DNA of 64,000 bases from Eledone cirrhosa. Lineage: Eukaryota. Shown in pieces: positions 11,410 through 60,074 of this stretch. How positions within the stretch are numbered: the stretch's first letter is position 1; every line of letters starts with the position of its first letter. The stretch is taken from the NCBI GenBank assembly GCA_964016885.1, contig OZ024742.1:178188001-178252000 (forward strand), written 5' to 3'. The position numbers were made by a program, and so were the translations under genes. The notes beneath the pieces are model-generated. The model was not told the DNA's origin and did no database searches. It was given only the letters and a program-made list of their open reading frames with translations.

Positions 11410-14400
11410 CTATAACAACAACAACAGCAACAACCACGCCATTCCCTTACACTTTTCCCACAATAACAGCACCAACAACAACAACAACAGCAACAACCAC
11501 GCTATTCCCTTCCACTTTCCCACAATAACAGCACCAACAACAATAACAACAGCAATAACCACGCCATTCCCTTCCACTTTCCCACAATAACAGCACCAAC
11601 AACAAAACAACAACAACAACCACGCCTTTCCCTTCCGCTTTCCCACAATAACAGCACCAACAACAATAACAACAACAACAACCGCGCCATTCCCTTACAC
11701 TTTCCCACAATAACAGCAACAACAACAATAACAACAAAAACAACCACGCCATTCCCTTCCACTTTCCCACAATAACAGCAACAACAACAATAACAACAAC
11801 AACAACCACGCCATTCCCTTCCACTTTCCCACAATAACAGCACCAACAACAACAACGACAGCCACAACCACGCCATTCCCTTCCACTTTCCCACAATAAC
11901 AGCACCAACAACAACAACAACAACAACAACCACGCCATTCCCTTCCACTTTCCCACAATAACAGCAACACAACAATAACAACAAAAACAACCACGCCATT
12001 CCCTTCCACTTTCCCACAATAACAGCACCAACAACAACAACAACAGCCACAACCACGCCATTCCCTTCCACTTTCCCACAATAACAGCACCAACAACAAT
12101 AACAACAGCCACAACCACGCCATTCCCTTCCACTTTCCCACAATAACAGCACCAACAACAACAACAACAACAACAACCACGCCATTCCCTTCCACTTTCC
12201 CACAATAACAGCAACACAACAATAACAACAAAAACAACCACGCCATTCCCTTCCACTTTCCCACAATAACAGCACCAACAACAACAACAACAGCCACAAC
12301 CACGCCATTCCCTTCCACTTTCCCACAATAACAGCACCAACAACAACAACGACAGCCACAACCACGCCATTCCCTTCCACTTTCCCACAATAACAGCACC
12401 AACAACAACAACAACAACAACAACCACGCCATTCCCTTCCACTTTCCCACAATAACAGCAACAGAACAATAACAACAAAAACAACCACGCCATTCCCTTC
12501 CACTTTCCCACAATAACAGCACCAACAACAAAACAACAGCAACAACCACGCCATTCCCTTCCACTTTCCCACAATAACAGCACCAACAACAATAACAACA
12601 GCAACAACCACGCCATTCCCTTCCACTTTCCCACAATAACAGCACCAACAACAAAACAACAACAACAACCACGCCATTCCCTTCCACTTTCCCACAATAA
12701 CAGCACCAACAACAACAACAACAGCAACAACCACGCCATTCCCTTCCACTTTCCCACAATAACAGCACCAACAACAATAACAACAGCAACAACCACGCCA
12801 TTCCCTTCCACTTTCCCACAATAACAGCACCAACAACAAAACAACAACAACAACCACGCCATTCCCTTCCACTTTCCAACAATAACAGCACCAACAACAA
12901 CAACAACAACCACGCCATTCCCTTCCACTTTCCCACAATAACAGCACCAACAACAACAACAACAACAACAACCACGCCATTCCCTTCCACTTTCCCACAA
13001 TAACAGCACCAACAACAACAACAACAACAACAACCACGCCATTCCCTTACACATTTCCCACAATAACAGCACCAACAACAATAACAACAGCAACAACCAC
13101 GCCATTCCCTTCCACTTTCCCACAATAACAGCACCAACAACAACAACAACAGCAACAACCACGCCATTCCCTTCCACTTTCCCACAATAACAGCACCAAC
13201 AACAAAACAACAACAACAACCACACCATTCCCTTCCACTTTCCCACAATAACAGCACCAACAACAAAACAACAACAACCACGCCATTCCCTTCCACTTTC
13301 CCACAATAACAGCACCAACATCAACAATAACAGCAACAACCACGCCATTCCCTTCCACTTTCCCACAATAACAGCACCAACAACAATAACAACAGCAACA
13401 ACCGCGCCATTCCCTTCCACTTTCCCACAATAACAGCACTAACAACAACAACAACAGCAACAACCAGGCCATTCCCTTACACTTTCCCACAATAACAGCA
13501 CCAACATCAACAATAACAGCAACAACCACGCCATTCCCTTCCACTTTCCCACAATAACAGCACCAACAACAAAACAACAACAACCACGCCATTCCCTTCC
13601 ACTTTCCCACAATAACAGCACCAACATCAACAATAACAGCAACAACCACGCCATTCCCTTCCACTTTCCCACAATAACAGCACCAACAACAACAACAACA
13701 GCAACAACCACGCCATTCCCTTCCACTTTCCCACAATAACAGCACCAACAACAATAACAACAGCAACAACCACGCCATTCCCTTCCACTTTCCCACAATA
13801 ACAGCACCAACAACAACAACAGCAACAACCACGCCATTCCCTTCCACTTTCCCACAATAACAGCACCAACAACAATAACAACAGCAACAACCACGCCATT
13901 CCCTTCCACTTTCCCACAATAACAGCAACAACAACAACAACAGCAACAACCACGCCATTCCCTTCCACTTTCCCACAATAACAGCACCAACAACAATAAC
14001 AACAGCAACAACCACGCCATTCCCTTCCACTTTCCCACAATAACAGCACCAACAACAAAAAAACAACAACAACCACGCCATTCCCTTACACTTTTCCCAC
14101 AATAACAGCAACAACAACAATAACAACAACAACAACCACGCCATTCCCTTTCACTTTCCCACAATAACAGCAACAACAACAATAACAACAGCAACAACCA
14201 CGCCATTCCCTTACACTTTTCCCACAATAACAGCAACAACAACAATAACAACAACAACAACCACGCCATTCCCTTCCACTTTCCCACAATAACAGCACCA
14301 ACAACAATAACAACAGCAACAACCACGCCATTCCCTTACACTTTCCCACAATAACAGCAACAACAACAATAACAACAACAACAACCACGCCATTCCCTTA

Positions 14401-17400
14401 CACTTTCCCACAATAACAGCACCAACAACAACAACAACAGCAACAACCACGCCATTCCCTTCCACTTTCTCACAATAACAGCAACAACAACAATAACAAC
14501 AACAACAACCACGCCATTCCCTTCCACTTCCCCACAATAACAGCACCAACAACAAAACAACAGCAACAAGCAAGCCATTCCCTTCCACTTTCCCACAATA
14601 ACAGCACCAACAACAACAACAACAGCAACAACCACGCCATTCCCTTCCACTTCCCCACAATAACAGCACCAACAACAAAACAACAACAACAACCACGCCA
14701 TTCCCTTACACTTTCCCACAATAACAGCACCAACAACAACAACAACAGCAACAACCACGCCATTCCCTTCCACTTCCCCACAATAACAGCACCAACAACA
14801 AAACAACAACAACAACCACGCCATTCCCTTACACTTTTCCCACAATAACAGCACCAACAACAAAACAACAGCAACAAGCAAGCCATTCCCTTCCACTTTC
14901 CCACAATAACAGCACCAACAACAACAACAACAGCAACAACCACGCCATTCCCTTCCACTTCCCCACAATAACAGCACCAACAACAAAACAACAACAACAA
15001 CCACGCCATTCCCTTACACTTTCCCACAATAACAGCACCAACAACAACAACAGCAACAACCACGCCATTCCCTTACACTTTTCCCACAATAACAGCAACA
15101 ACAACAATAACAACAACAACAACCACGCCATTCCCTTCCACTTTCCCACAATAACAGCACCAACAACAATAACAACAACAACAACCACGCCATTCCCTTC
15201 CACTTTTCCCACAATAACAGCACCAACAACAATAACAACAGCAACAACCACGCCATTCCCTTCCACTTACCCACAATAACAGCACCAACAACAACAACAA
15301 CAACAACAACCACGCCATTCCCTTACACTTTCCCACAATAACAGCACCAACAACAATAACAACAGCAACAACCACGCCATTCCCTTCCACTTTCCCACAA
15401 TAACAGCACCAACAACAACAACAACAGCAACAACCACGCCATTCCCTTCCACTTTCCCACAATAACAGCACCAACAACAAAACAACAACAACAACCACAC
15501 CATTCCCTTCCACTTTCCCACAATAACAGCACCAACAACAAAACAACAACAACCACGCCATTCCCTTCCACTTTCCCACAATAACAGCACCAACATCAAC
15601 AACAACAGCAACAACCACGCCATTCCCTTCCACTTTCCCACAATAACAGCACCAACAACAATAACAACAGCAACAACCACGCCATTCCCTTCCACTTTTC
15701 CCACAATAACAGCACCAACAACAAAAAAACAACAACAACCACGCCATTCCCTTCCACTTTCCCACAATAACAGCACCAACAACAACAACAACAGCAACAA
15801 CCACGCCATTCCCTTCCACTTTTCCACAATAACAGCACCAACAACAACAACAACAGCAACAACCACGCCATTCCCTTACACTTTCCCACAATAACAGCAC
15901 CAACAACAATAACAACAGCAACAACCACGCCATTCCCTTCCACTTTCCCACAATAACAGCACCAACAACAACAACAGCAACAACCACGCCATTCCCTTAC
16001 ACTTTTCCCACAATAACAGCAACAACAACAATAACAACAACAACAACCACGCCATTCCCTTCCACTTTCCCACAATAACAGCACCAACAACAATAACAAC
16101 AACAACAACCACGCCATTCCCTTACACTTTCCCACAATAACAGCAACAACAACAATAACAACAACAACAACCACGCCATTCCCTTACACTTTCCCACAAT
16201 AACAGCACCAACAACAACAACAACAGCAACAACCACGCCATTCCCTTCCACTTTCCCACAATAACAGCACCAACAACAACAACAACAACAACAACAACCA
16301 CGCCATTCCCTTACACATTTCCCACAATAACAGCACCAACAACAATAACAACAGCAACAACCACGCCATTCCCTTCCACTTTCCCACAATAACAGCACCA
16401 ACAACAACAACAACAGCAACAACCACGCCATTCCCTTCCACTTTCCCACAATAACAGCACCAACAACAAAATAACAACAACAACCACGCCATTCCCTTCC
16501 ACTTTTCCCACAATAACAGCACCAACAACAATAACAACAGCAACAACCACGCCATTCCCTTCCACTTTCCCACAATAACAGCACCAACAACAACAACAAC
16601 AGCAACAACCACGCCATTCCCTTCCACTTTCCCACAATAACAGCACCAACAACAAAACAACAACAACAACCACACCATTCCCTTCCACTTTCCCACAATA
16701 ACAGCACCAACAACAAAACAACAACAACCACGCCATTCCCTTCCACTTTCCCACAATAACAGCACCAACATCAACAACAACAGCAACAACCACGCCATTC
16801 CCTTCCACTTTCCCACAATAACAGCACCAACAACAATAACAACAGCAACAACCACGCCATTCCCTTCCACTTTCCCACAATAACAGCACCAACAACAACA
16901 ACAACAGCAACAACCACGCCATTCCCTTCCACTTTCCCACAATAACAGCACCAACAACAATAACAACAGCAACAACCACGCCATTCCCTTCCACTTTCCC
17001 ACAATAACAGCACCAACAACAACAACAACAGCAACAACCACGCCATTTCCTTCCACTTTCCCACAATAACAGCACCAACAACAATAACAACAGCAACAAC
17101 CACGCCATTCCCTTCCACTTTCCCACAATAACAGCACCAACAACAACAGCAACAACCACGCCATTCCCTTCCACTTTTCCCACAATAACAGCACCAACAA
17201 CAAAAAAACAACAACAACCACGCCATTCCCTTCCACTTTCCCACAATAACAGCACCAACAACAACAACAGCAACAACCACGCCATTCCCTTACACTTTTC
17301 CCACAATAACAGCAACAACAACAATAACAACAACAACAACCACGCCATTCCCTTCCACTTTCCCACAATAACAGCAACAACAACAATAACAACAACAACA

Positions 17401-19925
17401 ACCACGCCATTCCCTTACACTTTCCCACAATAACAGCAACAACAACAATAACAACAACAACAACCACGCCATTCCCTTACACTTTCCCACAATAACAGCA
17501 CCAACAACAACAACAACAGCAACAACCACGCCATTCCCTTCCACTTTCTCACAATAACAGCAACAACAACAATAACAACAACAACAACCACGCCATTCCC
17601 TTACACTTTTCCCACAATAACAGCACCAACAACAAAACAACAGCAACAAGCAAGCCATTCCCTTCCACTTTCCCACAATAACAGCACCAACAACAACAAC
17701 AACAGCAACAACCACGCCATTCCCTTCCACTTCCCCACAATAACAGCACCAACAACAAAACAACAACAACAACCACGCCATTCCCTTACACTTTCCCACA
17801 ATAACAGCACCAACAACAACAACAACAACAACCACGCCATTCCCTTACACTTTTCCCACAATAACAGCACCAACAACAATAACAACAGCAACAACCATGC
17901 CATTCCCTTACACTTTCCCACAATAACAGCACCAACAACAACAACAACAGCAACAACCACGCCATTCCCTTACACTTTTCCCACAATAACAGCACCAACA
18001 ACAAAACAACAACAACAACCACGCCATTCCCTTCCACTTTCCCACAATAACAGCACCAACAACAAAACAACAGCAACAACCACGCCATTCCCTTCCACTT
18101 TCCCACAATAACAGCACCAACAACAAAACAACAACAACAACCACGCCATTCCCTTCCACTTTCCCACAATAACAGCAACAACAACAAAACAACAACAACA
18201 ACCACGCCATTCCCTTCCACTTTCCCACAATAACAGCACCAACAACAACAACAACAGCAACAACCACGCCATTCCCTTACACTTTTCCCACAATAACAGC
18301 ACCAACAACCACAACAACAGCAACAACCACGCCATTCCCTTCCACTTTCCCACAATAACAGCACCGACAACAAAATAACAGCAACAACCACGCCATTCCC
18401 TTCCACTTTCCCACAATAACAGCACCGACAACAACAACAACAACAACCACGCCATTCCCTTACACTTTTCCCCACAATAACAGCACCAACAACAACAACA
18501 ACAGCAACAACCACGCCATTCCCTTCCACTTTCCCACAATAACAGCACCAACAACAAAACAACAACAACAACCACGCCATTCCCTTCCACTTTCCCACAA
18601 TAACAGCACCAACAACAAAACAACAACAACAACCACGCCATTCCCTTCCACTTTTCCCACAATAACAGCACCAACAACAAAACAACAGCAACAACCACGC
18701 CATTCCCTTACACTTTTCCCACAATAACAGCACCAACAACAACAGCAACAACCACGCCATTCCCTTCCACTTTTCCCACAATAACAGCACCAACAACAAA
18801 AAAACAACAACAACCACGCCATTCCCTTCCACTTTCCCACAATAACAGCACCAACAACAACAACAGCAACAACCACGCCATTCCCTTACACTTTTCCCAC
18901 AATAACAGCACCAACAACAATAACAACAGCAACAACCACGCCATTCCCTTCCATTTTCCCGCAATAACAGCACCAACAACAAAACAACAACAACAACCAC
19001 GCCATTCCCTTACACTTTTCCCACAATAACAGCACCAACAACAACAACAGCAACAACCAGGCTATTCCCTTCCACTTTCCCACAATAACAGCACCAACAA
19101 CAATAACAACAACAACAACCACGCCATTTCCTTCCACTTTCCCACAATAACAGCACCAACAACAACAACAACAACAACAACCACGCTATTCCCTTCCACT
19201 TTCCCACAATAACAACACCAACAACAACAAAACAACAACAACCACGCCATTCCCTTCCACTTTCCCACAATAACAGCACCAACAACAACAACAACAGCAA
19301 CAACCACGCCATTCCCTTCCACTTTCCCACAATAACAGCACCAACAACCACAACAACAGCAACAACCACGCCATTCCCTTCCACTTTCCCACAATAACAG
19401 CACCAACAACAACAACAACAGCAACAACCACGCCATTCCCTTACACTTTTCCCCACAATAACAGCACCAACAACAAAAAAACAACAACAACCACGCCATT
19501 CCCTTACACTTTCCCACAATAACAGCACCAACAACAATAACAACAGCAACAACCACGCCATTCCCTTCCACTTTCCCACAATAACAGCACCAACAACAAA
19601 ACAACAGCAACAACCACGCCATTCCCTTCCACTTTCCCACAATAACAGCACCAACAACAACAACAGCAACAACCACGCCATTCCCTTCCACTTTCCCACA
19701 ATAACAGCACCAACAACAAAACAACAGCAACAACCACGCCATTCCCTTACACTTTTCCCACAATAACAGCACCAACAACAAAACAACAGCAACAACCACG
19801 CCATTCCCTTACACTTTTCCCCACAATAACAGCACCAACAACAAAACAACAGCAACAACCACGCCATTCCCTTACACTTTTCCCCACAATAACAGCATCA
19901 ACAACAAAACAACAGCAACAACCAC
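11410..19925. repeat. Minisatellite, ~56-65 bp unit, roughly 140 copies
   Basis: Unit CCACGCCATTCCCTT(C/A)CACTTTCCCACAATAACAGCAC followed by a variable (CAA)n. Degenerate units at ~11070-11410. Confidence 0.97.
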
Positions 19926-20444
19926 GACGACGAAGACTGTCTTTCCCTTCCTCTTCCTCGACTTTCCTCTTAAACTTAAAGCACAAACCAAACTAAACAG
20001 CCAAACTATAATATATATAACTGATCTCCGCCGCAGTTTCTTTCCGCCATAAAATAATAACTTTGTGGCTTTTGATTGATCTGTTGTGTCGACATTGATG
20101 GCCACATTCTGGCTATCTTTTCTTAGTGTCTAGCTACAAAATAACTGACTGTTTAATATGCTGGTACAACAACAGTAACAATAACAAAAGTAACAACAAC
20201 AGTTGCAAAGACAGCAACAGCAATAAAAACAACAGCAACATCAGTAACAACAACAGTGGCCTATGTTGTACATGTAGGACAGCTGCGGCACAAGACTAAG
20301 GAGAAGCAATAATTAATGTCTGCCTGCGTGGCTATGTGGATGTGTGGTTGTGTGTGTGTGTTTGTGTATGAGTGTGGCTGTGTGAATGTGGCTGTGTGGC
20401 TAGTGTCTAGCTACAAAATAACTGACTGTTTAATATGCTGGTAC

Positions 20445-21694: not shown

Positions 21695-24600
21695 TTTTTT
21701 TGTTTTTGTTTTTTTATTCGCGGTTGTATAAATAACTGTTTCTACTTTAGGCACAAGGCCAGCAATTATCCAGTGCATTACTGGTACTTTATTTTATCGA
21801 CCCCGTAAGGATGAAAGCAAAGTTAACCGCGGTTGTATAAATAACATTACAAATGTACAGTGACAACAAAGATAATACGTCATTAATGTGGATATAAGTT
21901 GTAACGATGAAAGAATGGTATTTAACTAATGTATTGGTACGCGATGGGGCCCGCCCACAGCCCCGGCGGACAGAATGGAGAAGGCGTTTCCCCGGAGGAC
22001 GGCAAGGGAGACGCGCTGGAAAAGTCACTCCAACTCGCGGGGCTTACACCTGCGGCTGGCCAGCTCAGCGCCTATGGTGGTGAGTAAGGAGGTAGCTGTG
22101 GGGCCGAGGACACCAGAAGTTTCCACTGCCAGGGGAACGACCGCAAACCTGTCGGAGAGCGACCGGTATTTGAGGAGTTTGGCCCCCTCAGCCCGACGTG
22201 CAGCAGAACCTGGGTCAGTCGCAGACTGCACCAGGTTGCGGCTGCAGAAAGTGTCGGTGCAAGTGGCATCCCAGACGAGGGGTTTGCCACCGCGAAACGG
22301 GAAGATGGTCATGCCATCTGGCCTTTTGCCGTCCCCTCGATCCAGCCCCACCGGCTCGAGCTGGAAATGGAAGCCTGCAGCGTCCAAGCCATGCTTAATG
22401 ACCTCGTTGAGAGCAGTATGGCGTGGAATGCGGCCGGCACTGTGGCGACAGGAAAGCGGGTGGAGGCCGAAAGAGTCCACGGTGGAACCGCAGCGACATT
22501 GGTGTGGCTGGCAGATCCGAAGGCCGAGGCTCAGGGAAACGCCGATTCGCAGGCTATGGTTGTCTAGCTGCGTGCCAGTGGAGAAGGAGGGCAGAGCATG
22601 GAGCCAGACACCACTGTGGGGTTTGGAGGCCGCACGAAAACAAGCAAGGCGGTGCTGGTCGAGCTGGCGTGTGAGCCTGTCTGAGGCCAGGCTGCACTGG
22701 ATGGCATCCCAAGTGCGTTGGGAGGACTTGACGTCAACATGTGAAGGAGGAGAGACGTCTACTGGGCTAAGTCCCAGCCGGTCCCACGTGTCACAGGCGG
22801 CCTCACATTCTCTGAACACAGAAGGTTATGTTGTGTTTTGAAGAACCCTGCTGACGAGGACGCGGCACGAGGTTACCGACGAAAGATACGCCGGCAAAGC
22901 TAGTGAGATCGGGAATCGGAGGCCTAGGCCGCCATACCTGTCCGGTAAAGTGGCCTGTTGCCACCCTATGTCGTCAAACTTGACGTTGGATATCCTCTCG
23001 GCTGCTGCTTGGATACAAGTATCGAGGTCAGCGAGGAGAGATGTCTGGGTGTAGCATGGAGCGCTGCGGAGTGTATAGAGGAGCTTCGGCATGGCGAAGC
23101 AGTTCCTCAGCAGAAAGAGAGCTGGGTGGCCGTCAATTAAGCCCAGTCGGCTCGTGAGAGTCTGGAGCTGTTGAAGCCTAGACCTGATGGTGGAGCGGAT
23201 GGCCGGAGGGTGGATCAGTGACCCGAGGATGAGGACATCCTCTTTGGGGGTCACCTGAACCTGGCGGAGAATGGACCGCATGTCCAAGACGGAGGCTGCA
23301 AAGCTCGCAGCATCGAGCCTGACGTTCACCACCTCCGACTTGGCCGAGTTGACCTGGAGGCCGATTCCCGCCAGGGCAGGAATCACCGATTGAAGTTCTT
23401 GGCAGACCGTCCGTACGGGACCTCCCAACGTAGCATCATCCAGATACCAAACGTTGAGAGGGGCCGTGATACTCCGGGCGATGTGGTCAATACCAAGGGC
23501 GAACAGGAGGGGTCCCAAAGTGTCGCCCTGTTGGACCCCAGTATCCGAGGGTATGACCGTATCAGCAGCTAGGAGCATGCTCGGGGCTCCATATGACAGG
23601 TAGGCCAGCGGGTAGGCAGAGGGGGCTCGGCTGAGGCAGGCCTCGATCAGATGATCCCGGCGTAAAGAGTTAAAGGCATTCCTCATGTCAAGCTTGACAA
23701 TAAGGTATCTGGAGTCCCTGGATGCCGGTACCGATAGGCAGCTGCTGAAGAACTGCCTGATTGCATGAGAGGCTCCCTCACAGCCACCGAACACGCCGAC
23801 CCCAGTTGCACCCGACTAAACTCCTCACCCAGATCGTGTGTGACGGACTTGCAGATCACCTTAGCAGCCAGTCTCCGGAAGACATTGCCCACAGCAATGG
23901 GGCGTATGCCACCCTCTTTCTTCCTGAGAGCGGTGAGGCTGGCCGAAAAAAAGAGGCCTCGGGCGTAAGGGTCGAGGGCACCATGAATGAGCCTATTGGT
24001 GAACGCCACAATTGCACTCAGAAGGCGGGGCCGGGCCTCAGCGGAGAGGGGGGATGTCAACTCCTTGGGGTGGCCTGGTCGGAGACCATCAACATCTCCG
24101 CAGCTGCTAGCTGGGAAGGACCTGATGGTGGACATGATATCTGCATCAGTAGCCACAAGGAGCAGGTGGGGGTCGGGTGGGGGTATGGGTCTGAGATCAG
24201 TGGGTGGTTCAGGGTGTTTGAGCCGCAGAGCAGCCAGGATCTCCTCGGTGGGTTGGAGGACAGTGTCCTCTGAGGCAACAACTCTGACTGCGGCCGAGAC
24301 ATCACCCATGATAAGCTTTGCGTTTACCCGGTCACGCAAACGCTTGGCGATGGCCTCGGGGGTGGAGGATAGGGGGTACCTGAGGGTGGGGTGTGTGGCG
24401 TCCCTGGGTATGCTTGGAATGGGCGCTCGCCCAAATGACGAGACATTGGCCTTGACGAAGGCTGCTGTTGGTCAGCGCCAGAGCTGGGGAGGTCGAGGGC
24501 AAGTGGGGCGAAATAGAACAACAGCTCCCAGTCACTGGCTCGATTGGAGTCCAGGGCGCTCTCAATCGAGGAAGCGAGGGCATCGGCTACCGGCACCCGT

Positions 24601-24997
24601 GTCGCTCCCGGGATCCTGAGTGGGATCTTCCAGAGCCGCCTGAGCCGAGCGATGTTGACCAGCGAGTCTCGGGCGTCAGGCAAGCTCGCTGTCCCATCTG
24701 GTGGTGTGCCAGACGGCCGTGGCTGGGAAGGCGTGGGGAAGAGGCAGCTCCTGCACCTCCACGCTGCGAGGGCATTGGAAGCTCGACGAGTCAAGCCAAC
24801 GCAGGTGAGGTGGTGGAAGCAGCCGCACCCCAAACAGTTCCGGCCCCTCTTCAGTTTGTTAGTGGTGCCGCAAGTGCTGTAGGTGTCGATTTGGAGGGGT
24901 AGGGGATGGGCGTAATGTGGTAACTGCTTGTTGTGTAGTGTGTTTTGGGATAGCTTAGGTTTGATGTAGTTAGGTGTTGGGTAGAAGTGTGTGAAAT
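21695..24997 (-). mobile_element. CRE-type non-LTR retrotransposon (PHD finger-RT-Zn knuckle-RLE), near full length but frameshifted
   Basis: PHD-like CLGC..HLTC..WRCRSC; RT motifs GGIRPIAVG, GVQQGD, WYLDD and GGLGL; CRC..H..SC..RH..LN; RLE motif RPDG; terminal (stop)LFQRVSLAVLRGNA. An AATAAA plus A-rich tail lies at 21695-21718. Markedly GC-rich. Confidence 0.88.
21737..21827 (-). mobile_element. 5'-truncated SINE inserted in the CRE 3' UTR
   Basis: Family core, with an 18-bp TSD CGCGGTTGTATAAATAAC at 21719-21736 and 21828-21845. Confidence 0.85.
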
Positions 24998-25019
24998 ATT
25001 ATATATATATATATATATA

Positions 25020-29507: not shown

Positions 29508-30510
29508 TGTGTGTGGACCAGTATTTTTGTGATACTGGTAAAAATGGTGTACATTATTCGATATTTTCAGTAATTTGCAAAAACGATTCTCTCAAAAGAA
29601 CATCAAAAACATCAATAATAAAAGAGGTGAAATGATATATAGTATTGTCATAACACCAAGGTGTGTGTGAGTGTCCAGATTGTACGTACTGCAAGGGGAA
29701 TCCATTAGGCCCTGCCGTATGGGAATACTTGTGTACAAATATGTATGTGCCCATCAGTGTGTAATGCATGTGTGCGTATATGTATGTGTGTGTGTCGGCA
29801 CGTTTATATCTATAGACATCAAAAGGTATGCAAATTTGTGTATATTTGTGTTGCACCATAGAACATGTGTGTTTACGTATGTCATTGTGTTTATATGTGG
29901 ATAGAAATGTATGTAGGATGTATGCTGATGTAGGTATGTATGTTGACGTGTGTATGTTGTGGGTTCGTCTTAGGGAGAAGTGTTTAGACGGGTTTCGTAT
30001 TTGTTAATAAAGTGAGATTCCTTGCTGATGCGCTGGGTGTGGGTGGCATTATCTTTAAATTTGTAGAGGGGAAAGATTCTAAAGTTGGAATGATTTGGGG
30101 CGGCACAGGTATCAATGTGTTCACTCAGTGGTATTTTTCTGTATTCCCGTATTTTAATTTGGGATCTATGGACAGTCATGCGTTGGCGGAGGCTGTTTTT
30201 AGTCTGGCCTATGTATTGTTCTCGACAACCTGAGGAAGTTAATACATATATTAGATTTTCTGATGCGCATGTGAAATTGTGTTTTACTATAAAACGTTGT
30301 CCTTCTTTGAAATAGAATTCCGAACCCTCTATTAGGTTGATGCATATGCCACAGTTGGGTCTATCGCATTTTTTTACTGTGGGTTTCGTTGTTGTGGTTG
30401 GCAGTACTTTGGCATGTGTTAGGATGTTTTTCATTGACTTAGATTGTCTTTTGTTCTTTATGATATCGTGTGTTCGATGGATTTGGTTCATTCTATGGCC
30501 CTTTTTTAAT
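28604..30510 (-). mobile_element. 5'-truncated Penelope-like element (Neptune/Poseidon-type GIY-YIG) with long 3' UTR
   Basis: GIY-YIG ORF at 29970-30491, a microsatellite-rich 3' UTR and an HHR-like motif at 28717-28753. A second copy of the 3' end lies at 54547-55060. Confidence 0.8.
29970..30491 (-). CDS. PLE GIY-YIG endonuclease with Zn-knuckle linker (partial)
   Basis: CDRPNCGIC...FTCASENLIYVL..C..QYIGQT..LRQRM..HR...KE...LN. Confidence 0.85.
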   Translation of the reverse strand: MNQIHRTHDIIKNKRQSKSMKNILTHAKVLPTTTTKPTVKKCDRPNCGICINLIEGSEFYFKEGQRFIVKHNFTCASENLIYVLTSSGCREQYIGQTKNSLRQRMTVHRSQIKIREYRKIPLSEHIDTCAAPNHSNFRIFPLYKFKDNATHTQRISKESHFINKYETRLNTSP

Positions 30511-30517
30511 ATATATA

Positions 30518-30912
30518 TAGTGAAAGAGTGAAGAATAACATGGTCAAAAGTTCAAAAAGAGTGTTATCTACAGTATTAACAATTGTTTTATTCTGATGAT
30601 TTTGTTCAGCATACATTGTATTTAAAATTGAGTGACACAACTTCAAGTGATTAGCAATTTTTAGATAACTTAATCAATGAAACAATTGTTAATACTGTAA
30701 ATAAGACCCTTTTTGTATTTTTGACCATGTTATTCTTCACTCTTTCACTATTATTACTCCAAGATAAACTTACATAGGAATTCCCGAGAACTCATAAACT
30801 CGCCACCTAAGGAGACCTCTTGTGGAGTCAAACAACGCCGTACGCTAAAACTATCCACAATACGGAGTATTCACAACCTCTAACTGGATTACCTATAACG
30901 ATAATTTGTTAT

Positions 30913-51366: not shown

Positions 51367-51367
<1 letters not shown>

Positions 51368-52725
51368 TGCTTTTATCGAGAATCTAATTGTAATACGTGA
51401 CGTATTCTATTCTATAGCGATTAGGTCTTCAAAATGTTTATTATAAACATACAGAATATTTTCGAATATTCTATGTCTATATTCACATATATATCGCTAT
51501 TTCAGAGCATTTATTCCAATTTCTAATTTCTGCCGGACCGGCAACCGCTCTTTCAAACCAGTTCCTGTACACAGCTAAGTATTCTATAAGTCTCTAGCTG
51601 TGTCATTCTCGATAGAAGCACTGGATATGTAGTCCTGACGATTTCTAACGAGAATGAAACGCGTAGACTTACTTCCCTTGCTTTTATCGAGAATCTAATT
51701 GTAATACGTGACGTATTCTATTCTATAGCGATTAGGTCTTCAAAATGTTTATTATAAACATACAGAATATTTTCGAATATTCTATGTCTATATTCACATA
51801 TATATCGCTATTTCAGAGCATTTATTCCAATTTCTAATTTCTGCCGGACCGGCAACCGCTCTTTCAAACCAGTTCCTGTACACAGCTAAGTATTCTATAA
51901 GTCTCTAGCTGTGTCATTCTCGATAGAAGCACTGGATATGTAGTCCTGACGATTTCTAACGAGAATGAAACGCGTAGACTTACTTCCCTTGCTTTTATCG
52001 AGAATCTAATTGTAATACGTGACGTATTCTATTCTATAGCGATTAGGTCTTCAAAATGTTTATTATAAACATACAGAATATTTTCGAATATTCTATGTCT
52101 ATATTCACATATATATCGCTATTTCAGAGCATTTATTCCAATTTCTAATTTCTGCCGGACCGGCAACCGCTCTTTCAAACCAGTTCCTGTACACAGCTAA
52201 GTATTCTATAAGTCTCTAGCTGTGTCATTCTCGATAGAAGCACTGGATATGTAGTCCTGACGATTTCTAACGAGAATGAAACGCGTAGACTTACTTCCCT
52301 TGCTTTTATCGAGAATCTAATTGTAATACGTGACGTATTCTATTCTATAGCGATTAGGTCTTCAAAATGTTTATTATAAACATACAGAATATTTTCGAAT
52401 ATTCTATGTCTATATTCACATATATATCGCTATTTCAGAGCATTTATTCCAATTTCTAATTTCTGCCGGACCGGCAACCGCTCTTTCAAACCAGTTCCTG
52501 TACACAGCTAAGTATTCTATAAGTCTCTAGCTGTGTCATTCTCGATAGAAGCACTGGATATGTAGTCCTGACGATTTCTAACGAGAATGAAACACGTAGA
52601 CTTACTTCCCTTGCTTTTATCGAGAATCTAATTGTAATACGTGACGTATTCTATTCTATAGCGATTAGGTCTTCAAAATGTTTATTATAAACATACAGAA
52701 TATTTTCGAATATTCTATGTCTATA

Positions 52726-52729
<4 letters not shown>
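51367..52729 (+). mobile_element. Retrozyme-like tandem array: 4.4 x 311 bp, one hammerhead per unit
   Basis: Units start at 51367, 51678, 51989, 52300 and 52611. I see only one difference between them (52594 G>A). Non-coding and flanked by (TA)n. Confidence 0.85.
51629..51677 (+). ncRNA. Type I hammerhead ribozyme, unit 1 (repeated at +311, +622 and +933)
   Basis: gt AGTC CTGACGA t TTCT aacg AGAA t GAAAC gc GTA GACT t ac. Predicted cleavage follows 51665. Stem III is palindromic (ACGCGT). Confidence 0.82.
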
Positions 52730-52785
<56 letters not shown>

Positions 52786-58390: not shown

Positions 58391-58880
58391 TAAACAAATA
58401 ATGAACAAACAATTCCTTATATTAAACAAAAAAAGTTCACTATTTAACGATCGTTTCTAGGGTATATATGTGTTATAATTGGTATGCATATTTAACAGAT
58501 CTATGTACAAAATTATACAAAATTATACAAATTATCAAGATTAAATATACATACCTAACTCATATATACGCCGTCTTCAGAAATAATGAAGTATATTTAT
58601 TGATAATAACAACAATTCAAAATATCAGTTCAAAATTGACCAATGAAAACACAAAGGGTTAAAAAACAGTTTGGTGTGTGTATATACATGTAAAAACCTT
58701 ACACATATTTTACAATAATGTGTGTATAATTTGTATGTGCATACTAAAAAGATGGATGTAAATACAAAATTTCAAGGTTAATATCTCTGTAAGCTTAATG
58801 CGCTGATAAGATACGCAATGATACTTATGGAGTCAAGCATATAAATATATTTTTTTCATACTCACACATATCAGTATAAC

Positions 58881-60074
58881 CAAAACTTACATTACATACA
58901 CTCACAATCTAATCACCCTAAATCTATCCTTAAAAACCTTGCATATAATATATCACTTAGAATTTCTAACCTTTCTTCTAACCAAGATGTATTTGATAAA
59001 AATGCGACCTTTTATAATGAAGCTCTAGATAGAAGTGGCCACAAAAATAGATTAGAGTATATACCTTCTACTAAAAATACTGAAAACATACAGCATAATA
59101 TTACCAACAAACACCAAATGAAAAGTACACACCTAAATGCCACCCACAGTATACCCCAAAATACTAAATCTTCTAATATAAAGTATAGTAACCCTCAAAA
59201 AACTACTCATCATACGACTATAATAAATATTAATAATAAAACTCCTAATAAAAAAGATAAAACACCTAAATCTACAAATATAACTAAAAATAGTTGTGGT
59301 GAGATCATTAACATAAATCATGATACAACATATAAAAATAATAAAAATAATAAACAACATAGAAACCGTAATAGACGAGTTACTTGGTATAATGCTCCTT
59401 TTAATTTACAAGTTAAGGATAATATTGCTAAAAAATTTTTTTATATCCTTGAGAAAAACTTCCCGCCAAACCACAAATACCATCAAATCTTAAATAGGTC
59501 TACAGTTAAATTCTCATACTCTACAACAAATAACATAAAACAAAATATAAGTGCATATAATGCATATAAATGTAAGAAAACCATAAGTATACCACCAGTA
59601 CATCAAATTAACAATAATATCTCCTCAAATACAGAATTAACGAAAGGATGTAACTGTAGAAACAAAACAAACTGCCCATTAAAAGGGAATTGTCTTGTTA
59701 ACAACATAGTCTATAAATGTAATGTTAAAACTAAAGATTCTATTTGCTCATATATAGGAGCTACCTCTAACAATTTTAAGACAAGGTATAATACCCACAA
59801 ACATAGCTTTAAAAATGCCGCACTGGCTAATACAACATCTCTAGCAGAAAAAATCAATAGTTATAAAAATAAAAATATAAAATATGATTTGACCTGGAGT
59901 GTGCTCAAAAGAGCCACCCCTTATCAAAATAATAGAAAGGAATGTAGATTATGTTCCCAAGAACTATTTGAAATAATGAAGTCTAGGGATATCTTATTAA
60001 ATAAAAGACAGGAATTAATTATATCGTGTAATCATAAACTAAAAAAAACATTTAAATATTATAAACCTAATTAA
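58881..60074 (+). CDS. PLE polyprotein C-terminus (RT thumb plus GIY-YIG), 5'-truncated
   Basis: The frame is open upstream of the track ATG (YIHSQSNHP...FYNEAL..SG). It continues with TWYNAPF, CNCR..CPL.GNC, IVYKC..YIGAT, CRLC and LLNKR.E..C.H. Confidence 0.85.
   Translation, partial: QNLHYIHSQSNHPKSILKNLAYNISLRISNLSSNQDVFDKNATFYNEALDRSGHKNRLEYIPSTKNTENIQHNITNKHQMKSTHLNATHSIPQNTKSSNIKYSNPQKTTHHTTIININNKTPNKKDKTPKSTNITKNSCGEIININHDTTYKNNKNNKQHRNRNRRVTWYNAPFNLQVKDNIAKKFFYILEKNFPPNHKYHQILNRSTVKFSYSTTNNIKQNISAYNAYKCKKTISIPPVHQINNNISSNTELTKGCNCRNKTNCPLKGNCLVNNIVYKCNVKTKDSICSYIGATSNNFKTRYNTHKHSFKNAALANTTSLAEKINSYKNKNIKYDLTWSVLKRATPYQNNRKECRLCSQELFEIMKSRDILLNKRQELIISCNHKLKKTFKYYKPN

What the first reader, a model, noticed from the sequence alone, without database searches (positions are those of the whole stretch)
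51603..51694. Possible bistable on/off switch around the array ribozyme
Seen: ATTCTCGATAGAAGCA (51605-51620) can pair with TGCTTTTATCGAGAAT (51679-51694) over 16 bp with one G-U, extending stem I around an intact HHR. The overlapping TCATTCTCGATAGAA (51603-51617) can instead pair 14/15 with TTCTAACGAGAATGA (51643-51657), which destroys stem II and the start of GAAA. The two pairings are mutually exclusive. Inference: a viroid-like conformational control that keeps the ribozyme off until downstream sequence is made, or protects the circle from re-cleavage.
Basis: partly seen in the sequence, partly recalled or inferred. Interest (0 to 1): 0.75.

Follow-up and report, generated by a model that had tools for sequence, protein, structure and literature searches.

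The report
Retrozyme stem clamp, not bistable switch
Both RNA pairings are in the sequence, but only the long stem that closes the hammerhead ribozyme of this jumping repeat is conserved; the competing "off" pairing is near-perfect in under 1% of copies and is predicted to be short-lived, so this is likely an ordinary animal retrozyme rather than an on/off switch.

Summary
Both pairings are real. They lie in a 4.4-unit array of a 311-bp type I hammerhead retrozyme with about 16,000-19,000 motifs in this genome. The 16-bp extension of stem I (A:C) is kept in 99.7% of cells across 21 variants and recurs with unrelated sequence in two other families. The "off" helix (A:B) is not bistable. It costs +8.4 kcal/mol in the circle (P about 1e-6) and 9-18 in other variants. 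Its full 14/15 form was seen in 2 of 29 loci (at most about 0.5% of copies), it shows no compensation, and it is at chance level in both other families. It is predicted only in nascent RNA that lacks a free C arm. It does beat chance in the AACG-loop subfamily (4,706 copies), so a kinetic role there is not excluded. A likelier protection of the circle is the known dimer rule: stem III is a palindrome (ACGCGU here, different palindromes in other families), giving 6 bp between repeats and 1 bp in a circle. No RNA data were available. The scan has already reported what appears to be this family, with its Penelope-type insertion marks, on other DNA. Verdict: new member of a known kind; the switch is mostly not supported.

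The parts
51367..52738 (+). Tandem array of 4.4 x 311-bp retrozyme units between (TA)n tracts. It starts at unit position 13 (the C arm) and ends at the family's position-140 end, with no inverted arm in this copy
   Evidence: units identical except 52594 G>A
51368..51383 (+). Upstream C arm (first bases of the array); alternative partner for arm A of unit 1
   Evidence: P(A:C upstream) 0.83-0.93 when the RNA starts at 51368 and stops before the next C
51603..51620 (+). Arm A: 5' strand of the extended stem I. G51615 is a rare A-to-G variant
51623..51634 (+). Proximal stem I 5' strand: GGA, UAU internal loop, GUAGUC
   Evidence: sequence; UAU|U loop shared with family 4; one compensated change in L071, L104, L111
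51635..51665 (+). Hammerhead core of unit 1: CUGACGA, stem II (U.U + 3 bp, loop UAACGA), GAAA, palindromic stem III ACGCGU (51659-51664); predicted cleavage after A51665
   Evidence: cleavage not tested
51643..51657 (+).
51666..51678 (+). Stem I 3' strand; predicted 5' end of the cut monomer
51679..51694 (+). Arm C: 3' strand of the 16-bp extended stem I
51946..51976 (+). Hammerhead core of unit 2 (identical to unit 1)
52257..52287 (+). Hammerhead core of unit 3 (identical to unit 1)
52568..52598 (+). Hammerhead core of unit 4; 52594 G>A breaks the stem III palindrome (ACACGU)

Best explanation
The region is the type I hammerhead of a 311-nt non-LTR retrozyme, in which the conserved 16-bp A:C helix likely clamps the RNA ends together and the A:B helix is likely an unselected, short-lived by-product rather than a switch. 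Shown: array, core, both complementarities, family size, conservation of A:C, lack of conservation of A:B, palindromic stem III in several families. Inferred: (1) Multimeric transcripts are cut mainly when two repeats pair their ACGCGU palindromes into a 6-bp stem III; arm A of one unit holding arm C of the same monomer would favour this. (2) The cut monomer stays closed by stem I plus A:C, which would line up its ends for ligation (RtcB in other retrozymes, PMC7229834). (3) A circle has only one palindrome, hence a 1-bp stem III, and would re-cleave poorly without any blocking strand. (4) B is largely fixed by ribozyme needs (U.U, loop UAAYRA, GA). Its likeness to C is a chance 7-bp core, improved in some lineages by A-to-G changes that may be editing scars. 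(5) A Penelope-like reverse transcriptase would copy the RNA into (TA)n.
For: A:C: 99.7% of 336 cells paired in 21 distinct variants from 29 loci; all four one-sided changes are A-to-G giving G-U. An equivalent long distal stem with unrelated sequence is in family 2 (duplex -12.7 to -30.5 kcal/mol, 20 loci) and family 4 (-16.5 to -18.6, 6 loci). A:B: 90.1% paired; C51610-G51650 kept in 3 of 21 variants, G51615-C51645 in 10 of 21; covariation at shuffle level, 247/500. Of 13 loci with G51615, 2 have the AACG loop. The forced off fold costs +8.3 to +18.1 kcal/mol in the circle in all 21 distinct units. A:B is not above shuffles in family 2 (0 of 20 at p<0.1) or family 4 (0 of 6). Arm sequestration before C is made is at null level in the 4 AACA/AATA, 4 family-2 and 4 family-4 copies tested. 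A-to-G counts along the four A's of arm A are 841, 176, 21, 7; the commonest does not help A:B. Stem III: ACGCGU in 27 of 28 family-1 motifs read, ACUAGU in 29 of 33 family-4 motifs, ACAG-A-CUGU in 17 family-2 loci. A junction plus one unit folds by itself into the inter-repeat hammerhead (z=-4.4). The catalytic fold there costs 0.5-1.0 kcal/mol, against 7.5-9.4 in the circle; family 4 gives 0.4-0.7 against 7.6-8.4. The dimer rule is stated for metazoan type I hammerheads in PMC4209133.
Against: A:B beats chance in the AACG subfamily, which has 4,706 copies: p=0.034, 3 of 2000, 0 of 40 nulls for L073 and 3 of 40 for the window. It is predicted in nascent RNA whenever the upstream C is absent or taken (P 0.84-1.00 in 12 of 21 variants). 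Its exit barrier could be high: 14.5 kcal/mol by a nested path, 21 by findpath; the pseudoknotted toehold route was not modelled. In a full dimer that keeps the first arm A, the local register wins (0.97-0.99). The double hammerhead then costs 6.2-11.7 kcal/mol for two sites, against 6.7-9.4 for one single site, so folding alone does not show that the dimer route is reached. Tertiary contacts, proteins and Mg2+ are not modelled. In 2 of 4 decayed family-3 copies an upstream-core duplex also beat shuffles. Eleven of the 29 loci were picked for G51615, which inflates A:B pairing and the A-to-G count.
Confidence: 0.7

Rival explanations
1. Kinetic routing: in the AACG subfamily A:B forms during transcription and parks the first arm A long enough for arm C to be caught by the next unit's arm A. 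This sets the shifted register that builds the inter-repeat hammerhead, so the 'off' helix would in effect turn processing on.
For: A:B forms before C exists (P 0.92 in AACG units); barrier up to 14.5 kcal/mol. With the first arm out of the way the inter-repeat fold is near the minimum (P 0.95-0.96; penalty 0.5-1.0), whereas with it free the local register wins. The 7-bp core of A:B is pair-compatible in 21 of 21 variants. Seven inner array ends fall at unit positions 116-121, about 30 nt after a TATAAA, which could be a start site upstream of arm A.
Against: No parking above null in AACA/AATA copies (the majority) or in families 2 and 4. Multi-unit arrays exist with nascent P(A:B) of 0.00-0.09. 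No covariation. The 116-121 cluster also fits a reverse-transcriptase stall at the hairpin ending at 118, and family 2 shows only a broad spread of inner ends.
Confidence: 0.1
2. One reading: a selected bistable switch in which A:B blocks the ribozyme in the mature circle, as in viroids and plant LTR retrozymes.
For: 14/15 complementarity, p=0.004; blocking precedents in plant retrozymes (PMC4918200 passages).
Against: P about 1e-6 in the circle; full helix in 2 of 29 loci; at chance level in two other families; in family-4 circles the core pairs with the body at P 0.000.
Confidence: 0.04
3. A single hammerhead is active enough on its own through loop I-loop II contacts in the locally folded A:C register, and the circle is protected by proteins, not by the dimer rule or by A:B.
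For: The local register is the predicted ground state in dimers. Loop motifs are conserved across families. PMC7229834 proposes blocking by a mechanism other than self-pairing.
Against: Palindromic stem III recurs with different sequences. Axolotl motifs with a 1-bp stem III or a U.U at the base of stem II cleave weakly as monomers and well as dimers.
Confidence: 0.16

Closest known systems
Metazoan non-LTR retrozymes (Cervera and de la Pena 2020, PMC7229834, parts 2-4 of 6 and passages read; Li et al. 2026, 10.64898/2026.07.22.740005, parts 1-3 of 5 read)
   Same: Tandem non-coding unit of 150-450 bp with one type I hammerhead, GC under 50%, thousands of copies, PLEs in the same genome, circle predicted not to be blocked by self-pairing.
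   Different: New sequence family. Expression, cleavage and circles not shown here. Two-armed insertions with fixed 140/166 ends were not described in the parts read.
Axolotl HHR_Amex1/HHR_Amex2 and newt satellite 2 dimer-dependent hammerheads (PMC7229834; PMC4209133 and PMC6155905 passages)
   Same: 1-bp stem III capped by a palindromic tetraloop (Amex1) and U.U at the base of stem II (Amex2); dimer use expected.
   Different: This motif has both weak features together plus a 16-bp distal extension of stem I; activity untested.
Blocked hammerheads of plant LTR retrozymes and viroids (PMC4918200 passages; satRPV alternative structure known to me only from reference titles)
   Same: A stretch complementary to part of the ribozyme exists.
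   Different: There the blocked fold is the predicted stable circle in several plant retrozymes; here it is 8-18 kcal/mol uphill and not conserved.
Endonuclease-bearing Penelope-like element insertions (Craig et al., 10.1101/2021.04.23.441226, passages)
   Same: Inverted 5'-truncated copy, one-sided tail (26-35 nt here, 30-40 there), (TA)n targets.
   Different: No coding sequence; the partner PLE was not identified; this window's copy has one arm only.

Membership tests
Metazoan non-LTR retrozyme | Type I hammerhead with full conserved core in each repeat | tested here: met
   Four cores at 51635, 51946, 52257, 52568; Rfam found nothing at gathering score
Metazoan non-LTR retrozyme | Tandem non-coding units of 150-450 bp, GC under 50% | tested here: met
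   311-bp period; about 34% GC; no ORF of 110 aa or more over the array
Metazoan non-LTR retrozyme | Dispersed high-copy family that co-occurs with PLEs | tested here: met
   18,857 pattern matches, control 3,063; two young PLE-like families with many open frames of 784 and 830 aa; GIY-YIG confirmed by Pfam for one of two window fragments
Metazoan non-LTR retrozyme | Self-cleavage of the transcript | not testable with these tools
   No assay
Metazoan non-LTR retrozyme | Expression as linear and circular monomer RNA | not testable with these tools
   Only contigs of unknown kind were available
Dimer-dependent type I hammerhead | Stem III of 1-2 bp with a palindromic loop | tested here: met
   ACGCGU; palindromes of other sequence in families 2-5
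Dimer-dependent type I hammerhead | Inter-repeat fold preferred over the single fold | tested here: inconclusive
   Strongly preferred without the first arm A; not the ground state in a full dimer
Viroid or plant-retrozyme blocked hammerhead | Ribozyme paired to a complementary strand in the most stable circle | tested here: not met
   +8.3 to +18.1 kcal/mol in 21 of 21 units
Viroid or plant-retrozyme blocked hammerhead | Blocking helix conserved or covarying among variants and relatives | tested here: not met
PLE-type insertion | Inverted copy, one-sided tail, (TA)n target | tested here: met
   21 of 30 loci two-armed; 20 of these 21 end at unit position 140 on one side and 164-175 on the other; the window copy is one-armed
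PLE-type insertion | Sequence homology to the pLTR of an autonomous PLE | tested here: inconclusive
   No significant match to loci of the two PLE families sampled; other PLE families not sampled

The most novel reading that the evidence does not exclude
A young subfamily of this retrozyme has gained, by stepwise A-to-G changes, a co-transcriptional hairpin that parks the first stem I arm and so shifts the pairing register of the whole multimer into inter-repeat hammerheads. It would be a kinetic routing switch that turns processing on, in an animal retroelement.
Probability: 0.1. Interest if true: 0.65.

Novelty: new member of a known kind. Interest (0 to 1): 0.27.

Why it matters
How animal retrozyme circles avoid cutting themselves is stated as open in PMC7229834. 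A true self-pairing switch would answer it, but this one fails the thermodynamic and comparative tests. What remains useful is a natural allelic series (11/15 to 14/15 complementarity on a nearly constant background), a conserved clamp, and palindromes that change between families. Together they allow a clean bench test of the dimer rule against kinetic routing.

Tried and rejected
Rfam scan: no match. Sequencing runs: no RNA holder listed. Contigs of four coded runs of unknown kind read A at 51615 and mostly A at 51650. A second laying on a shorter stretch listed neither row, so I do not lean on these data; their 311-base back-joints cannot tell arrays from circles.

Idea that B resembles C in every family: a look-alike in family 2 by eye gave no duplex above shuffles (0 of 20). 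Idea that each family parks arm A with some partner: rejected. Idea that G51615 marks editing at an A.C mismatch of the off helix: not favoured, because the neighbouring A after U changes five times more often; no T-to-C control was run.

Partner PLE: not found in two families. My first stem I and stem II indices were off by one and those two columns are not used. The pattern was one base too long and returned other families instead of family 2. L068 was left out of alignment A1 because the extracted copy sat on an inversion junction; L078 belongs to another element.

Three papers were not held. Supplements were not read; Figure S6 of PMC7229834 and the tables of Li et al. may hold related families. 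Literature searches showed, from their listings, no paper on this family or on such a switch in an animal retrozyme.

Full report
Observation. Both pairings are at the stated places: arm A (51605-20) with arm C (51679-94), 16 bp with one G-U, and 51603-17 with B (51643-57), 14 of 15. They exclude each other. They surround a complete type I hammerhead (core from 51635, predicted cut after 51665) in an array of 4.4 units of 311 bp, 51367-52738, between (TA)n tracts. In this copy A:B beats shuffles (p=0.004; 0 of 2000).

What it is. The genome (3.0 Gb, animal) has 18,857 matches to the core pattern against 3,063 for the reversed control; 99 of the 100 listed are this family. Of 30 loci examined, 21 are two-armed, with a reverse array followed by a forward array. 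In 20 of these 21, one outer end lies at unit position 140 and the other at 164-175, both in TA-rich repeats. That matches the inverted copy, one-sided tail and TA target described for Penelope-like elements (passages). Units within an array are mostly identical and differ between arrays, as expected if each insertion was copied from one RNA species. Two young PLE-like families with many intact frames are present, but neither matched the unit. This is a non-LTR retrozyme in the sense of PMC7229834 and Li et al.. Earlier notes of this scan describe a 310-nt family with the same layout; they are not independent support.

Thermodynamic test. The circle and the linear monomer fold with A:C (P 0.95) and A:B at 0.0000. 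Forcing A:B costs 8.4 kcal/mol in the circle at 37 C and 9.2 at 15 C, and 8.3-18.1 across 21 distinct units. So it is not bistable and cannot shield the circle in this model. A:B does dominate truncated RNA ending at 51657-51684 when no upstream C is free (0.94-0.96) and is gone by 51690. If each arm A takes the C downstream of it, A:B can recur at later units (0.00-1.00 by variant). The exit barrier is uncertain: 14.5 kcal/mol by a nested path, 21 by findpath, with toehold routes not modelled. A kinetic trap is therefore not excluded.

Comparative test. G51615 is in 176 copies and the AACG loop in 4,706. Of 13 loci with G51615, only the window and an identical array on C8 have AACG. That gives 32 known units with the full helix and at most 49 more among the unlisted matches, about 0.5% of the family at most. 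On 29 loci (21 distinct; 11 picked for G51615), A:C is 99.7% paired with four A-to-G wobble changes. A:B is 90.1% paired, its C-G pair survives in 3 of 21, and covariation is at shuffle level. A-to-G counts along the four A's of the arm fall 841, 176, 21, 7. This fits editing of the A:C duplex with a 5'-U preference (recalled; lead from note e1-8803689; no control run) or founder effects, and the commonest change does not help A:B. An older sister family (family 2) and a family with about 29,900 pattern matches (family 4) both keep a long distal stem I of unrelated sequence. Neither has an upstream-core duplex above shuffles (0 of 20 and 0 of 6 at p<0.1), and neither sequesters the arm above null. 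Family 4 shares the U.U, the loop UAAYAA and the UAU|U internal loop, so most of B is set by the ribozyme; that these are the loop I-loop II contacts is recalled. Against my reading: AACG copies do exceed the nulls, and 2 of 4 decayed family-3 copies also did.

Mechanism. Stem III is ACGCGU: one A-U pair in a monomer, 6 bp between two repeats. Other families have other palindromes. PMC4209133 states that this design allows cleavage in multimers and avoids it in monomeric circles, and axolotl motifs with these weaknesses cleave far better as dimers. A junction plus one unit folds spontaneously into this inter-repeat hammerhead, closed by A:C. The active fold costs 0.5-1.0 kcal/mol there against 7.5-9.4 in the circle, and family 4 behaves alike. 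In a full dimer, however, the local register is the ground state and the double hammerhead costs 6-12 kcal/mol, so how the productive register is reached is not shown. This gap is where A:B could matter, by parking the first arm (novel case, 0.1). It cannot be general, since the AACA/AATA copies and the other families lack it. Ligation by RtcB and copying by a PLE are taken from the literature and from the insertion marks; neither is shown for this family.

Verdict. The bistable, circle-protecting switch is not supported. A transient nascent hairpin is predicted in some alleles. New member of a known kind; interest 0.27. What I saw of the papers: parts or passages as listed under Closest known systems; PMC3185496 and PMC6765202 as passages; no supplements.

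Noticed in passing
family-wide: Inner ends of array arms cluster at unit positions 116-121 (7 of about 50), about 30 nt after a TATAAA at position 88 (window 51753) and at the 3' base of a hairpin (99-118): a possible start site or an RT stall. A TGACGT site lies at position 44.
   Followed up: partly
L072:2225-2240, L079, L068, window 51367: Several inversion junctions or array starts fall at the ends of arms A and C; in L072 the two arms join through the 16-bp A/C inverted repeat as microhomology.
   Followed up: no
L083-L102; L096:2330-3083; L192:2776-3043: Older sister retrozyme family (about 315 bp) with the same 140/167 ends, and a further subfamily with a 12-nt palindromic stem III.
   Followed up: partly
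L145-L174: Another retrozyme family with about 29,900 pattern matches (units of about 424-500 bp) sharing loop II and the internal loop of stem I with the window family.
   Followed up: partly
window 58845-60074 (+) and 29970-30551 (-): Fragments of two young PLE-like families; 150 of 150 scored hits of the first are 100% identical over 168 aa, many with 830-aa open frames.
   Followed up: partly
window 21930-24998: Long ORFs in pieces that look like a non-LTR retrotransposon reverse transcriptase with an N-terminal PHD-like finger (by eye, not scanned).
   Followed up: no
window 11414-19926: 62-bp satellite of about 138 copies with strong strand skew.
   Followed up: no
L078, L077:4870-4920, L085, L088, L093: Minimal hammerhead motifs of PLE-end type, several in head-to-head palindromes.
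   Followed up: no
window 52594: The fourth unit has a G>A change that breaks the stem III palindrome.
   Followed up: no
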